Shown piece after piece: positions 8,063-53,962 of a stretch of 64,000 nucleotides of DNA. The stretch lies in assembly GCA_964016885.1 (NCBI GenBank), contig OZ024741.1, positions 229,772,001 to 229,836,000 of the forward strand, in the 5' to 3' direction. Source of the DNA: Eledone cirrhosa (Eukaryota). The translations under genes were made by a program, and so were the position numbers. The notes under the pieces are model-generated. The model worked only from the letters and a program-made list of their open reading frames with translations, was not told the origin of the DNA and ran no database searches. Position 1 is the first letter of the stretch. Each line of letters starts with the position of its first letter.

Positions 8063-9757
8063 TTAACAATATATTTAGAAACACACAGATACATGCGGAC
8101 ACACACATATATACATGAATGCATCCGCACCCAACTGTGAGTTAAGGGTGCCAACTTCACCGATGTTGCTCAATGAATGACTGGGACAGACCAATTCAGT
8201 TGAACTAGACTGAACCAGTATCAGAGTTAAAAATACATTATGAAGAGAGAAGAAACATTTAGATATAATTAGTAATAAAATGTATCATACCTAAACTGCT
8301 CCTAAATTCCTCGACTACGTAGTTTCGTGGCATAAACAAAAACAATATATCATAAAGATATAGAGTCCTTGCGAGGTCTGCCGACTTATCAAGAGGATAC
8401 CTCATTTTACTAGTCTCAAGAACGCGTCTACACGACGTGAGAAAGAATCCCAAAAGGCGGAGGGGGAGATAATCACGCGATATAACGGTCGAGAAACAGA
8501 GCTAAGCCTCTTATAACCCCGAAGAAAATACCACGGAGGCGGAGGGGGTATTTATATCGAGGCCGTAGAAGAGGTGGTGAAGAAGGCGAGAAGTATGAGT
8601 AATGGAAGCTTTCCAGCTGTCCCCACACTTCAAAGATTGCTCGACCAGAGGGAGTTATTAACAATATATTTAGAAACACACAGATACATGCGGACACACA
8701 CATATATACATGAATGCATCCGCACCCAACTGTGAGTTAAGGGTGCCAACTTCACCGATGTTGCTCAATGAATGACTGGGACAGACCAATTCAGTTGAAC
8801 TAGACTGAACCAGTATCAGAGTTAAAAATACATTATGAAGAGAGAAGAAACATTTAGATATAATTAGTAATAAAATGTATCATACCTAAACTGCTCCTAA
8901 ATTCCTCGACTACGTAGTTTCGTGGCATAAACAAAAACAATATATCATAAAGATATAGAGTCCTTGCGAGGTCTGCCGACTTATCAAGAGGATACCTCAT
9001 TTTACTAGTCTCAAGAACGCGTCTACACGACGTGAGAAAGAATCCCAAAAGGCGGAGGGGGAGATAATCACGCGATATAACGGTCGAGAAACAGAGCTAA
9101 GCCTCTTATAACCCCGAAGAAAATACCACGGAGGCGGAGGGGGTATTTATATCGAGGCCGTAGAAGAGGTGGTGAAGAAGGCGAGAAGTATGAGTAATGG
9201 AAGCTTTCCAGCTGTCCCCACACTTCAAAGATTGCTCGACCAGAGGGAGTTATTAACAATATATTTAGAAACACACAGATACATGCGGACACACACATAT
9301 ATACATGAATGCATCCGCACCCAACTGTGAGTTAAGGGTGCCAACTTCCCCGATGTTGCTCAATGAATGACTGGGACAGACCAATTCAGTTGAACTAGAC
9401 TGAACCAGTATCAGAGTTAAAAATACATTATGAAGAGAGAAGAAACATTTAGATATAATTAGTAATAAAATGTATCATACCTAAACTGCTCCTAAATTCC
9501 TCGACTACGTAGTTTCGTGGCATAAACAAAAACAATATATCATAAAGATATAGAGTCCTTGCGAGGTCTGCCGACTTATCAAGAGGATACCTCATTTTAC
9601 TAGTCTCAAGAACGCGTCTACACGACGTGAGAAAGAATCCCAAAAGGCGGAGGGGGAGATAATCACGCGATATAACGGTCGAGAAACAGAGCTAAGCCTC
9701 TTATAACCCCGAAGAAAATACCACGGAGGCGGAGGGGGTATTTATATCGAGGCCGTA
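8063..9757 (-). repeat. Tandem array, 595-bp unit (~2.85 copies, nearly identical), one variant hammerhead per unit
   Basis: Exact 595-bp periodicity (8063/8658/9253); only one substitution noticed (~9348); flanked by (TA)n; non-coding. Confidence 0.95.
8308..8397 (-). ncRNA. Type I hammerhead ribozyme with U3-A8 core (copies also at 8903-8992 and 9498-9587)
   Basis: Minus strand: UCCUC-UUGAUAA-[GUcGGCA...UGCCAC]-GAAA-CUACGUAG-UC-GAGGA. Perfect stem I, palindromic stem III, GUC triplet. Confidence 0.8.
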
Positions 9758-9773
9758 TATATATATATATATA

Positions 9774-10443
9774 CTAGCAGAGGAGCCCGGTTGCACTCCT
9801 CGGGGCTACTCGGGGCCACTTTTTTATTAAGTTAATAAGTTGCGGCGTGACGTGAAGAGAGTGGTTTGACAGAGAGACGTTGGGTGGAGTAGGGTTCAAA
9901 GATGTTATTGCAGGGCTTCTTTGTAGACAACGTTCCTGGTGTTGACCGGGTTACCACAAATGAAGAGGTTGTGTGGACTGCCGACGCGGGAGCATCCGAC
10001 GTATAGTTGACCATGGGCAAATACCTTCTGTGTTAGATTTGGGCCAACCACTTGCAGCGATTGTCCTTGTGCTTTGTTAATGCTCATTGCAAAGCAGAGT
10101 TTTATGGGAAACTGCCATCGCGTAAATTAATAGGGGACGTCAGAGGGATTAAGGCTCATACGGGTAATTAACCTGGTAACGCCAGCAGCGGGTCCGCTCA
10201 AAATGGTTGTCTCCAGAATTTGGATCCTTATTGTTTTGATGATTAAACGCGTTCCGTTGCATAGTTCTGGTGCATCCAGGTTTCTCAGCAGCATAACTGG
10301 CACACCAACCTTCAGTTTCAGATCATGAGGAGGAAGCCCTGGAGGTAGTTGACTGTTGAGGAATTCAATTGGGTAGATGACGGCGTCGTCCGCGTTTTTA
10401 TAGGTGTTAATCGACTTGAAGGAGACTTCATTTCCGGGAATCT
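9774..10443 (-). mobile_element. Helitron Pif1-like helicase C-terminus and 3' terminus
   Basis: Translation contains GLPPHDLKLKVGVPVMLLRNL, LCNGTR, FAMSINKAQGQSL and FAHGQLYVGCSRV; followed by a GC-rich hairpin (9780-9807) and terminal CTAG (9774-9777) next to (TA)n. Confidence 0.92.
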
Positions 10444-10478
10444 GATATATATATATATATATATATATATATATATAT

Positions 10479-51257: not shown

Positions 51258-51368
51258 GTACTCTGATGTGTTGACCAGAGGTAAATAATGTATTGGAGAT
51301 CGAGTGGCGCAACTTCAAGCGATTAGCGACCTCTAGACTCACCTGATCAACGAAACAATTGTCAGTAC
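51258..51368 (+). ncRNA. Type I hammerhead variant (CUGAUGU core, long stem II); mirror copy at 47627-47737 (-)
   Basis: GUACU-CUGAUGU-[GUUGAcCAG...CUGaUCAAC]-GAAA-CAAUUG-UC-AGUAC. Confidence 0.7.
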
Positions 51369-51454
51369 TTGAAATAAAGCCCCTTATTGTATAGCCAACC
51401 ATGTTACTCTTCATTCTTTCATTATGTATATATATATATATATATATATATATT

Positions 51455-53962
51455 CAGTTATTAGGAGTATTCCAAAGCTTGGTAGAACAAGTTGTGAGGA
51501 AAGTTCTCAACATACGTTAAGGTGACTCGACAGGTTGGTAGGGATTCTGTAGTGGAAACACGAACAAACGAGGAGTGTAATCAAAGAAGAGAAATAGGAC
51601 GAAGGTAAACAGTTACAAAAGAATTTAATCCACGTATTAACAATTGTTTCATCAGAATTTCAGTCCATTATTGCTACACTATGTTAAAATAAGCAATCAA
51701 GAAAGATGCTGTGGCATCCGAATTTTCAAAATACAAAGTTGGAATGACCTTAGGAAATGAAATAAGGGGTAGTAGTGTAAGATAGAGGAACAGAGAGAGA
51801 GAGAGCAGCAAAAGAGAGGGAGAGAGAGAGAGAGAAAAGGGATAGAGGTAGGGAGAGAAAGAGATAGTGTGGTGTGAGAGGATTTGTATAGGGAGGGGGA
51901 GGAGGGCTGTGTGCTAAAAGTTGTGATAAGTAGAGGGAGAGAGAAGGAAGATAGAATTTTAAGAGGCTATTGGAAGTGGACAGGCGAAAGTCTTACCAGA
52001 GAACAGATGAAGGAAGAAAGTATTAAATTTCATATATAGTCTATTTTTAGGGGTGTAGAATTGTTATTTAGGGTAGAAAGATAGGTAGTGTTAGGATTTG
52101 GTTGAAGGTTTGAAGTGTGAGAATTTCGCTTTCAGTTTATGCTGGCAAAAAATTGACCTTTCAATTTTGTTGTTGAGTAGTTGGTGGCTTGAGCTTAGAA
52201 TATGGAAGAGCTCATTATTACACAACGGGCACGTTTTCATCCCACTCCGGTATGGAGGAGCATGTGAGAGTTTGGTCCATTTAAGGGTGTATTGTCGGTT
52301 ACTCCCTTTTAAGTGCCAAATTTTGTCCGCGAGAGTCGTTACGTAACGGTGTTGGTGGTGCTTTATTGCGTAACGATGCGTGTACCAACGAGTTTTGAAG
52401 GTGTTTGCAGTGCTGCCTATGTAGTACCAGGTTTGGTTGCCCGACTCAACCGAGCACCTGTACACTAGGTTTGAATGCAAACATTCGTTATTCAATGGAC
52501 AAGTCTCTGGAAGGTGGCAATTACAATTTCTGTTATGGGCAGTGGTGGAGTTATAGGTGGGCTGGGATGTGTGTGTGTGAGTGTGTTTTGTGCATACTGA
52601 TTGTTAGTGGGTGGTTGTGTATTAGGTGTATTATTGTGTTGAGTGATTGGGGTGTTGTTGTTACGGAGTTTTTTGGCGTTGAGCATCTTAATCTGTGCGT
52701 CTAGGTTTGGTGCAGTGGAATAAGATAGTCTAATTGTTTTGGTATTAAGTATACTACTATATTTATGTGAATTTGGAAAGTGTTTTTTTTATAATTTTGT
52801 AGAATGTGGAAGGTGTTAGAGCTAATAGAAGAGTTAAAAATAGGATTATACCAAATGTAAGATCTACTCCGTGTTCTGTTTTGCTTTGATGTTGCTGTTG
52901 TATTTGTGGTGTGGTTAGTATTAGGGGGTCTAGGTGCGTTTGTGCGGCGTTTGGTGTGTCTGTGGTTATGTGTTTTATGGTTGTGTGGGTCCATGTATTC
53001 TAGTTTGTCGGTGTGGCCAGCCCGTTCTAATGCAGTGTTGTAGTATTCAGCGTGTTGATCGAATATTTGTTGGTTAGATGAGAGGCGGGATATTCTAAGT
53101 GATATACTATGTGGCACGGACCTTATAATAGATAGTGGGTGGTTAGAGCTAGTGTGGATGTAGGTGAGGTTCTCATTGTTTTTGTGAAAGGGTGTGATAA
53201 TTTGGGTGTTGAGGTTGAAGGTGGCATCTAGGAAGTTAACTACTTTGGTACTATATTCGTAGGTGATTTTAAGGCCAAGGCTATCTAGGGTTCTTCTAAT
53301 GCTCTTACGGGTTCGTTCTATGTTTTGTTTATTCATGTTTTTAACTAATAGGAGAGCGTCATCTCTATATATTCCGCCTTGAAGGTAACTAACTTTATTA
53401 TGTAAGGTGTGGGCTATGTATATACCAACAATATCCGTAACTTGTGCTGAGTCATTAGCACCCATAGTTATGTCAAAGTTATCTATTCTATCCTTACGTA
53501 TCCAAAAGTTATTTTCAAATTTAATTATCGTCTTTCTAGCTGCTAGGATAATGTTTATTTCGTCGTCGGTTAAGTCAGAGTTGGCTTTCGCAAATTCTAG
53601 TGCCTTGTTTAGAGTATCGGGTGATATGCAGGAGTAATAGTCATTAATGTCGAATTGTATAAAGTTAGAGGTATTTTTGTTATCTATACTATTAAACCAT
53701 TTAATTGTGTCGCTAGTATTGTCCCAAAGTTTAATAACTAGTTTATTCCTTAATTGTATTATTATTCTATCTAAAATATGCTTGCTAATTTTACCTATGT
53801 CTGACTTAGATGGGCATATTAATCTAATAGTGGGTTTATCTAGGAAATCTAATTTGTGGTCCTTAAGATTAAAGGTGGGGGTGCAAGTTGTCATGGGCTC
53901 AGTTCTATGACAACTTGCATTAAATTCTTTCGTAACTGTTTACCTTCGTCCTATTTCTCTTC
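51455..53962 (-). mobile_element. Penelope-like element 4, 5'-truncated, with pseudo-LTR
   Basis: ORFs 52701-53894 (MGANDSAQVTDIVG, YRDDAL, NFLD) and 52091-52495 (LVY..YIGST..FKTRWYTH); 53920-53960 is an inverted copy of 51588-51628. Confidence 0.9.
51634..51734 (-). ncRNA. Type I hammerhead with U3-A8 core and long stem II in the Penelope 4 pseudo-LTR
   Basis: Minus strand: GUAUU-UUGAAAA-[uUCGGA...UCUGAu]-GAAA-CAAUUG-UU-AAUAC. Confidence 0.65.

What the first reader, a model, noticed from the sequence alone, without database searches (positions are those of the whole stretch)
8308..51734. Compensated U3-A8 hammerhead core recurs in three unrelated families
Seen: UUGAUAA (8386-8392, -), UUGAAAA (21783-21789, +) and UUGAAAA (51723-51729, -) each sit exactly between a stem I and a stem II followed by GAAA-stem III-NUH. 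Known: positions 3 and 8 form a tertiary Watson-Crick pair (C3-G8) in the active fold, and U3-A8 swaps can retain activity but are a minority among natural HHRs. Inferred: the double change in three families suggests selection for catalysis rather than decay, and that many HHRs in this lineage are missed by standard descriptors.
Basis: partly seen in the sequence, partly recalled or inferred. Interest (0 to 1): 0.75.

Follow-up and report, generated by a model that had tools for sequence, protein, structure and literature searches.

The report
U-A core hammerheads in Penelope retrotransposons
Three jumping-gene families in this animal genome carry a hammerhead (self-cutting RNA) motif with an already described U-A instead of C-G core pair, and one of them kept multiplying through a long phase in which that pair was mismatched before restoring it, so the ribozyme likely cuts weakly and is likely useful to the element but not required for every copy.

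Summary
The three sites are real type I hammerhead motifs, and U3-A8 is the family norm: 6,203 of 6,230 full cores in family 1, 4,134 of 5,707 in family 2, 99 of the first 100 listed in family 3. Families 2 and 3 end Hydra-type Penelope retrotransposons; family 1 is a 595-bp tandem retrozyme-like repeat. In a 0.99-Mb unbiased sample U3-A8 cores number 19 against 31 canonical, and switch state at least three times on the reverse-transcriptase tree. U3-A8 itself is published (Perreault 2011; Cervera 2014). The new part: about 1,450 family-2 copies carry a mismatched C3·A8 core in successive subfamilies lying between old and young U3-A8 ones, with the rest of the fold conserved. Young family-2 copies start about tenfold more often exactly at the predicted cut site, a likely footprint of cleavage in vivo; tails of the mismatch phase show it at roughly two-thirds that rate. 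So selection keeps the fold, but a Watson-Crick 3-8 pair is not strictly needed. Cleavage was not assayed. This scan noted the mismatch phase and the footprint before on other DNA of this genome.

The parts
8308..8397 (-). Family 1 type I hammerhead, U3-A8 core at 8392-8386, predicted cut between 8313 and 8312; possible loop II / upstream pseudoknot
8903..8992 (-). Family 1 hammerhead, second tandem copy (core 8987-8981)
9498..9587 (-). Family 1 hammerhead, third tandem copy (core 9582-9576)
8062..9757 (-). Family 1 array: 2.85 units of a 595-bp non-coding repeat inserted in (TA)n; retrozyme-like; 7,696 exact 3'-anchor matches genome-wide
21778..21872 (+). Family 2 hammerhead (decayed copy of an old U3-A8 subfamily), core 21783-21789, predicted cut between 21867 and 21868
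21490..21970 (+). 5'-truncated 3' end (pseudo-LTR and tail) of the family 2 Hydra-type Penelope element, ending in (TA)n; start approximate
10480..10711 (.). Head-to-head pair of family 2 3' fragments that begin inside loop II (no core 5' half)
46513..46654 (+). Further family 2 tail fragment
51634..51734 (-). Family 3 hammerhead, U3-A8 core 51729-51723, U10.1-U11.1 mismatch, 2-bp palindromic stem III, predicted cut between 51639 and 51638
52091..53939 (-). Broken reverse-transcriptase and endonuclease reading frames of the family 3 Hydra-type Penelope element, upstream of its hammerhead
51258..51368 (+). Hammerhead of the sister family of family 3, canonical C3-G8 (this copy has U at position 9); same stem I and stem III as family 3
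48402..50614 (+). Broken Penelope reading frame of that C3-G8 sister family; same well-supported clade as family 3
14817..14951 (+).

Best explanation
The three sites are type I hammerhead motifs whose U3-A8 core is the family norm in two Hydra-type Penelope retrotransposons and one tandem retrozyme-like repeat; they likely cut their own RNA at a modest rate, and that cutting is likely useful to the lineage but not required for each insertion. Shown: the motif lies a short way upstream of the element's fixed 3' end; most copies are made from RNA that still runs through the cut site; about 5-6% of young family-2 tails begin exactly at it. Inferred: cutting in the upstream repeat frees the element RNA (and may allow circles, giving family 1's tandem arrays), while cutting in the downstream repeat severs the gene from the priming site and yields only tiny insertions, so selection keeps the fold but tolerates, or favours, a weaker core. 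The 3-8 pair can therefore change one base at a time through a mismatch that still amplifies: family 2 went U3-A8, then C3·A8, then U3-A8 again, and family 3 and its sister differ as U3-A8 against C3-G8.
For: Family counts: family 1 U3-A8 6,203, non-U3 12, non-A8 15, C3-G8 0; family 2 U3-A8 4,134, non-U3 1,515 (97 of first 100 C3·A8), U3·G8 36, C3-G8 8; family 3 99 of first 100 of 162; sister family 88 of first 100 of 136 C3-G8, none U3-A8. Subfamily ladder from upstream DNA alone, old plus young U3-A8 rejected as one clade, p-AU 3e-5. Through the mismatch phase 1 of 45 core and stem positions changed against 23 of 92 others, p 6e-4. Cut-site starts in young tails: 374 plus about 200 palindrome arms, against about 35, 45 and at most 51 at positions -2, -1, +1, and 19,819 uncut. 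At least three changes of state on the RT tree, p-AU 7e-4. Frangieh 2024 (PMC11167929, passages): hammerhead mutants did not impair insertion by a Penelope element in vitro.
Against: No cleavage assay and no RNA reads. Family 1 shows no cut-site peak (19 against 8 at the -2 control, about 1.6-fold after correction). Old U3-A8 tails (class C) are under-represented among cut-site starts (5 of 61 against 23 of 100), so the footprint does not track the core pair simply. In a mutational scan of another hammerhead, single changes at these positions had low activity and only the G-C swap rescued (PMC9901934, passages), which makes an active C3·A8 surprising. Predicted folding puts sites 2 and 3 (window copies) almost wholly in other folds. 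The AU groups for family 2 were named after a first tree on partly shared sequence had been seen. RT-tree links rest on 12 labelled rows and pseudo-LTRs may be swapped between lineages.
Confidence: 0.68

Rival explanations
1. Strict compensation: only Watson-Crick 3-8 pairs are functional, cleavage is essential, and mismatched copies are dead by-products.
For: Genome sample: U3-A8 19 and C3-G8 31 against C3·A8 2 and U3·G8 0; families 1 and 3 and the sister family are nearly pure Watson-Crick; family 2 returned to U3-A8 and the youngest, largest subfamilies carry it.
Against: About 1,450 C3·A8 copies form at least three successive subfamilies spanning 0.39 substitutions per site of internal branch; a small U3·G8 subfamily also amplified.
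Confidence: 0.08
2. The fold is kept as a protein-binding or RT-recognition structure, not for catalysis; the start-site peak is an RT or repair artefact at the foot of stem III and its G run.
For: Cut-site starts are nearly as frequent in C3·A8-phase tails (raw 65 of 3,481 against 374 of 19,819); no peak in family 1; PMC11167929 found uncut RNA to be the insertion template and no RNA-seq ends at the cut site for another element.
Against: The peak sits at position 0, not at -1 or -2 where a stall at stem III would fall; single-stranded catalytic residues are invariant across ten subfamilies except position 8 in one; 3-8 covaries between homologous families.
Confidence: 0.14
3. C3·A8 ribozymes are rescued: either C3 pairs with G7 in a slipped register (92 of 97 C3·A8 cores have G7, which arose on the same branch), or 3' halves are cut in trans by 5' halves from U3-A8 copies, or the element's protein assists.
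For: C3 and G7 appear together at the C-to-D subfamily step; 3' anchors outnumber full cores about tenfold (55,469 against 5,707), so split molecules are common; protein-assisted cleavage is reported for another Penelope hammerhead (PMC11167929, passages).
Against: Position 7 varies freely among subfamilies (U, A, C, G, U), so G7 may be coincidence; G7 was kept after the return to U3. No direct test.
Confidence: 0.2
4. Neutral drift under AT-biased mutation: master elements lost C3 and G8 by decay and the motifs are non-functional passengers.
For: The genome is AT-rich; both changes are transitions towards A/T.
Against: Both changes together with intact stems in at least six families; family 1 and a relative 77% identical elsewhere share the core, stems I and III and most of stem II; cut-site footprint in family 2.
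Confidence: 0.04

Closest known systems
U3-A8 minimal hammerheads of Cercyon Penelope-like elements, Schistosoma mansoni (Cervera and De la Pena 2014, PMC4209133; parts 1-2 of 4 read)
   Same: Type I hammerhead in the flanking repeats of Penelope-like elements; U3-A8 instead of C3-G8; a large share of motifs (about 1,300 against about 2,000 there).
   Different: Here the motifs have a real stem III and a long loop II, occur in at least six families including tandem retrozyme-like repeats, and one lineage amplified with C3·A8. No mismatch phase or cut-site footprint is reported in the parts read.
Natural core variants of hammerheads (Perreault et al. 2011, PMC3088659; section 8 and passages read)
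   Same: C3-G8 to U3-A8 covariation in several natural examples; U10.1-U11.1 mismatch and weak stems III also listed (as in family 3).
   Different: There rare; here thousands of copies. C3·A8 is not named in the section read (figures and supplements not seen).
Hydra clade of Penelope-like elements (Craig et al. 2021, PMC8557442; section 11, passages, one supplement search)
   Same: RWK-like and DKT motifs, CxCX5C linker, CxxC and CxH around the endonuclease, (TA)n targets, inverted truncated copy and one-sided tail, hammerhead near the 3' end.
   Different: The paper reports canonical hammerheads for this clade; families 2 and 3 have U3-A8 and are 3.0-3.5 kb, at or above its usual size.
Animal non-LTR retrozymes (Cervera and De la Pena 2020, PMC7229834, passages; Li et al. 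2026, bioRxiv 10.64898/2026.07.22.740005, parts 1-2 of 5)
   Same: Non-coding tandem units each with one type I hammerhead; proposed to be moved by Penelope elements.
   Different: Family 1 has a U3-A8 core, a 591-595-bp unit, and Penelope-style fixed ends (89-91 or about 254-263 bases past the anchor) in inverted pairs; the detection pipeline of Li et al. uses canonical and minimal models. Circular RNA not shown here.

Membership tests
Type I hammerhead ribozyme | Core residues U4 G5 A6 A9, G12 A13 A14, A15.1-U16.1, H17 around three helices with open stem I | tested here: met
Type I hammerhead ribozyme | Watson-Crick pair at positions 3 and 8 | tested here: met
   U3-A8 at all three window sites and in most copies; not met in about a quarter of family 2 cores
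Type I hammerhead ribozyme | Helices supported by conservation or covariation | tested here: met
   family 2: 1 of 45 against 23 of 92 positions changed; family 3 against sister; family 1 against 77% relative
Type I hammerhead ribozyme | Active fold predicted for a single copy | tested here: inconclusive
   minimum-energy fold for an intact young family-2 copy and for the fourth family; within about 1-2 kcal/mol but minor in the ensemble for the three window sites; tertiary contacts and dimers not modelled
Type I hammerhead ribozyme | Site-specific self-cleavage | not testable with these tools
   indirect footprint in family 2; none in family 1; family 3 not examined
Type I hammerhead ribozyme | Match to an Rfam hammerhead model | tested here: not met
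   0 matches at gathering score in the window, canonical motifs included; none among the 150 of 207 rows shown at E<=10
Minimal hammerheads of Cercyon-type PLEs | No or vestigial helix III, short motif | tested here: not met
   families 1, 2 and 4 have 3-6 bp or longer stem III and loop II of 40-80 bases; family 3 has a 2-bp palindromic stem III
Hydra clade of Penelope-like elements (families 2, 3) | RWK motif and DKT in place of DKG | tested here: met
   RWR and DKT in family 2, RWK and DKT in family 3 (definition)
Hydra clade of Penelope-like elements (families 2, 3) | CxCX5C linker; CxxC and CxH flanking the C-terminal endonuclease | tested here: met
   read by eye
Hydra clade of Penelope-like elements (families 2, 3) | Single RT-EN reading frame between two hammerhead-bearing repeats; (TA)n insertion; inverted copy and tail | tested here: met
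   L273 intact 786-codon stop-to-stop frame between two motifs; L270, L272 likewise but broken
Hydra clade of Penelope-like elements (families 2, 3) | Absence of the CCHH motif | not tested
   no alignment to reference endonucleases made
Hydra clade of Penelope-like elements (families 2, 3) | Groups with published Hydra sequences in an RT tree | not testable with these tools
   reference proteins could not be loaded; trees hold only elements of this genome
Non-LTR retrozyme (family 1) | Tandem non-coding units, one type I hammerhead per unit | tested here: met
Non-LTR retrozyme (family 1) | Expressed as circular and linear monomer RNA | not testable with these tools
   no RNA holder listed
Non-LTR retrozyme (family 1) | Sequence link to an autonomous Penelope element | tested here: inconclusive
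   no hit to a coding element among the loci held; insertion pattern is Penelope-like

The most novel reading that the evidence does not exclude
A natural hammerhead with a mismatched C3·A8 core, expected from in vitro scans to be nearly dead, stayed under selection and still cut in vivo while its retrotransposon lineage amplified to over a thousand full copies; Penelope hammerheads are tuned-down ribozymes that cross between C3-G8 and U3-A8 through active mismatch intermediates, and genomic copies that start at the cut site give a built-in readout of ribozyme activity per subfamily.
Probability: 0.35. Interest if true: 0.72.

Novelty: new variant of a known kind. Interest (0 to 1): 0.5.

Why it matters
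What hammerheads do for Penelope-like elements is open (Craig 2021 calls it unclear; Frangieh 2024 found cleavage dispensable in vitro). Family 2 offers a dated natural series of one ribozyme with U3-A8, U3·G8 and C3·A8 cores in the same scaffold, each with hundreds to thousands of genomic copies and a countable cut-site footprint, so activity, copy success and the route through a compensatory change can be compared directly. In practice, descriptors limited to CUGANGA miss about a third of full-stem type I motifs in this genome.

Tried and rejected
DNA search of the genome with the 131-base site 1 found nothing (common words are skipped), so patterns were used. Rfam gave no hammerhead. Pfam gave only a below-cut-off GIY-YIG hit for one other Penelope fragment and nothing for the family 3 fragments. 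No RNA holder listed for family 1; contigs laid show presence only: a diverged family-1 variant in run X6 has no change at positions 3 or 8, and C3 with G7 appears in contigs of X1 and X5. The first RT tree carried three labels that I could not verify afterwards (f14, f13 on L227 minus, f2 on L256); they were unlabelled, two verified links were added, and the test was rerun; 6 of 26 rows were dropped for under 300 columns. For the family 2 trees 9 of 70 rows and 19 of 75 rows were dropped as truncated. Neptune and Naiad assignment considered and dropped: domain order and motifs fit Hydra. The raw count of 1,685 cut-site starts was rejected because 39 of 100 listed were uncut copies with an extra G. 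The 3,039 one-mismatch hits for family 3 are not its copy number: they include the C3-G8 sister family. A family-1 cut-site peak was sought and not found. A link between family 1 and the C3-G8 motif at 42555 (shared upstream word and loop word) was not confirmed by BLAST. The exact pattern for the fourth family matched only the window. Przybilski and Hammann 2007, Martick and Scott 2006 and Hammann 2012 were not held, so kinetic values for C3·A8 come from no call.
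Full report
OBSERVATION. With a helix score, the window has 5 U3-A8 hits at score 30 or more against 0.25 per dinucleotide-shuffled window (20 shuffles) and 6 against 0.3 at 28 or more, which takes in site 3. Site 1 is one of three copies in a 595-bp tandem array. A fourth U3-A8 motif at 14822-14828 was missed, and 16 canonical C3-G8 motifs score 28 or more in the same window. The window lies in a 3.0-Gb animal genome rich in (TA)n; I did not establish the species.

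WHAT THE FAMILIES ARE. Family 2 (site 21783) and family 3 (site 51723) are the end repeats of coding Penelope-like elements: full copies read hammerhead, one reading frame of about 720 residues, 3' untranslated region, hammerhead, then (TA)n. Their proteins carry RWR or RWK, DKT, a CxCX5C linker and CxxC and CxH around the endonuclease, the marks given for the Hydra clade (PMC8557442 section 11). They share 43% identity. Family 1 has no reading frame in the loci held, repeats every 591-595 bases, and inserts as inverted pairs with two fixed ends, 89-91 and about 254-263 bases past its anchor; that is the Penelope pattern of inverted copy plus one-sided tail, so it is most likely a non-autonomous retrozyme moved by a Hydra-type element (inference; no partner found).

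IS U3-A8 THE FAMILY STATE? Patterns that leave positions 3 and 8 open were counted in the whole genome; reversed-pattern controls were 0 each time. Family 1: U3-A8 6,203; other base at 3, 12; other base at 8, 15; C3-G8 none. Family 3: 162 matches, 99 of the first 100 listed U3-A8. Family 2: U3-A8 4,134; other base at 3, 1,515, of which 97 of the first 100 listed are C3·A8; other base at 8, 73, namely U3·G8 36, U3·C8 12, U3·U8 10, C3-G8 8, C3·C8 4, C3·U8 2, A3·G8 1 (all rows counted by hand). So of 5,707 full cores about 72% are U3-A8 and about 25% C3·A8. These are exact-pattern counts and lower bounds.

GENOME-WIDE SHARE. In 99 evenly spaced 10-kb stretches (0.99 Mb) the descriptor at score 34 or more gave C3-G8 31 (shuffled 0.0), U3-A8 19 (1.0), C3·A8 2 (0.0), U3·G8 0 (1.0) (three shuffles). 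At score 30, hits in multi-copy clusters were U3-A8 18 in 6 clusters (one likely chance) and C3-G8 44 in 11. U3-A8 is thus roughly a third of full-stem type I motifs; minimal motifs without stem III were not searched. Rfam reported none of the window's hammerheads, canonical or not.

ONE ORIGIN OR SEVERAL? On an RT-endonuclease tree of 20 elements from this genome, with 12 rows whose hammerhead link I checked by flanking copies or unbroken sequence (three of the six C3-G8 links are plausible rather than certain), the A8 and C3-G8 states need at least three changes, and one A8 clade is rejected (p-AU 7e-4). The direction is unknown without a root. Family 3 has a sister family with the same stem I, stem III and U10.1-U11.1 mismatch but a canonical core: 88 of the first 100 of 136 matches C3-G8, none U3-A8; its broken copy lies next to family 3 in the window (48402-51425) and falls in the same 100/100 clade.

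THE MISMATCH PHASE. Trees of family 2 copies, one on the motif region with positions 3 and 8 masked (61 of 70 rows) and one on upstream DNA alone (56 of 75 rows), give the same ladder: a small U3·G8 side branch and old U3-A8 subfamilies (the window copy is here), then a grade of C3·A8 subfamilies, then young U3-A8 subfamilies nested inside that grade. A more distant U3-A8 relative (L222) shares flanks with the oldest branch. Median tip length falls from 0.041 to 0.031 to 0.019 along the ladder, the C3 grade spans 0.39 substitutions per site of internal branch, and old plus young U3-A8 as one clade is rejected at p-AU 3e-5 (groups named). The two C3-G8 copies in the tree are single tips inside the C3 grade; 8 such copies are no more than neutral mutation of C3·A8 copies would give (about 13 expected from the U3·G8 rate; my arithmetic). 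From the last old subfamily to the first young one, 1 of 45 core and stem positions changed (a change that repairs a stem III pair) against 23 of 92 loop and flank positions (Fisher p 6e-4). The lineage therefore amplified for a long time with the pair broken while the rest of the fold was kept.

FOOTPRINT OF CLEAVAGE. For young U3-A8 tails: 19,819 run through the site; 374 have foreign A or T right before it (12 of 12 such loci viewed were true junctions); about 204 more are arms of perfect palindromes centred on it (82 of 100 listed of 249). Neighbouring positions give about 45 at -1 (18 of 100 of 249), at most 51 at +1 (32 of 100 of 159) and about 35 at -2 (about 31 of 100 of 113). After correcting for what each pattern can capture, position 0 is about ten times its neighbours and holds about 5-6% of tails. 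A stall at stem III would fall at -1 or -2, so cleavage is the simplest cause (inference). For tails typical of the C3·A8 phase the raw ratio is 65 to 3,481; 22 of 30 viewed were true junctions, 6 of them one duplicated cluster, giving 1.1-1.4% against 1.9%; but these tails are not pure (3 of 4 full cores among 30 loci were C3·A8), and trans cleavage is possible. Against a simple reading, old U3-A8 tails are under-represented among cut-site starts (5 of 61 against 23 of 100), and family 1 shows no peak (19 against 8), which could mean re-ligation into circles or no cutting. All sub-tallies of 100-row listings were counted by hand.

MECHANISM. Shown: position of the motif just upstream of the fixed 3' end, uncut templates in the great majority of copies, conserved fold, switching of the 3-8 pair, amplification with a mismatch. 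Inferred: modest self-cleavage that processes tandem or read-through RNA and may allow circles (the model of Cervera and De la Pena, PMC4209133), but that is costly in the downstream repeat, so that weaker cores are tolerated or favoured. This agrees with Frangieh 2024, where hammerhead mutants did not impair insertion in vitro and cleavage needed the element's protein, and sits uneasily with Roberts 2023, where single changes at these positions had low activity and only the G-C swap rescued in a different hammerhead. Confidence 0.68.

COMPARISON WITH PRINT. Natural U3-A8 covariation is reported by Perreault 2011 and, in Penelope elements of Schistosoma with about 1,300 hits, by Cervera and De la Pena 2014. 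I found no report of an amplified natural C3·A8 core or of a cut-site footprint in eight full-text searches; that library lacks most subscription papers, and the key kinetic papers on this pair were not held. Figures and supplements of PMC4209133 and PMC3088659 were not seen; the supplement of PMC8557442 was searched once, and bioRxiv supplements are closed, so variant cores listed there could bear on novelty. Papers seen: PMC4209133 parts 1-2 of 4; PMC3088659 section 8 and passages; PMC8557442 section 11, passages, supplement hits; bioRxiv 2026.07.22.740005 parts 1-2 of 5; passages of PMC9901934, PMC11167929, PMC3884650, PMC7229834, PMC7151607; the rest as listings. Hammerhead numbering is from these papers and recall.

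EARLIER NOTES OF THIS SCAN. Looked up after my family counts and trees were done. Notes on other DNA of this genome already describe U3-A8 in Hydra-type elements, the mismatch phase and the cut-site starts; they are not independent evidence, and I tested the last claim myself.

VERDICT. Observation confirmed; interpretation partly supported. Known core variant in known element classes, at unusual abundance, with an undescribed amplified C3·A8 state and a countable in-genome footprint that make the role of these ribozymes testable. Interest 0.5.

Noticed in passing
window 14361-15196 (+); relatives L116, L218, L257, L361, L384: A fourth U3-A8 family in a 605-bp tandem unit with long stems II and III; relatives at 72-78% identity keep U3-A8 in three detected cores and show U3·G8 in one.
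   Followed up: partly
L095, L210, L098, L260, L241, L048, L222: Further U3-A8 families outside the window, including a short one with a canonical 4-bp stem II in the upstream repeat of a full Penelope element (L095).
   Followed up: partly
window 8397-8404 and 8374-8379 (-); 42543-42580 (+): Family 1 and the C3-G8 motif at 42555 share an upstream word that can pair with loop II (5-6 bp pseudoknot); the pairing is kept in the 77% relative L264.
   Followed up: partly
family 2 genome-wide; window 10480-10711: 3' halves outnumber full cores about tenfold; many copies begin inside loop II and form short head-to-head palindromes.
   Followed up: partly
family 2 subfamilies D-F: G at position 7 arose on the same branch as C3 and is in 92 of 97 listed C3·A8 cores; a slipped C3-G7 pair is possible.
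   Followed up: no
window 33784-35918 (-) with repeats 32266-32769 and 36018-36505: Near-complete Hydra-type Penelope element flanked by canonical C3-G8 hammerheads; palindromic remnant at 11071-11190.
   Followed up: partly
window 891-2126 (-): Tandem repeat of about 545 bp with three C3-G8 hammerheads (1024, 1569, 2110), another retrozyme-like array.
   Followed up: no
window 12039, 18835, 20115, 37770, 40567, 59017: Abundant C3-G8 family with a palindromic AUAU stem III and 8-bp stem I; the commonest family in the unbiased sample (23 hits).
   Followed up: no
window 23750-27160 (+): Open 1,136-codon frame of a non-LTR retrotransposon (RVT_1, E 5e-22) with a C-terminal restriction-like endonuclease by eye, flanked by (AAT)n.
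   Followed up: no
window 4502-7666 and about 9900-10420: Broken Helitron-like replication and helicase frames (by eye), interrupted by the family 1 array and other inserts.
   Followed up: no
window 12386-13201: 139-bp tandem repeat, about 5.8 copies, with an internal (CA)n tract.
   Followed up: no
run X4: A single 620-base contig closes on itself with the family 1 unit length, at low depth, in a run labelled as another organism; kind of run not on record.
   Followed up: no
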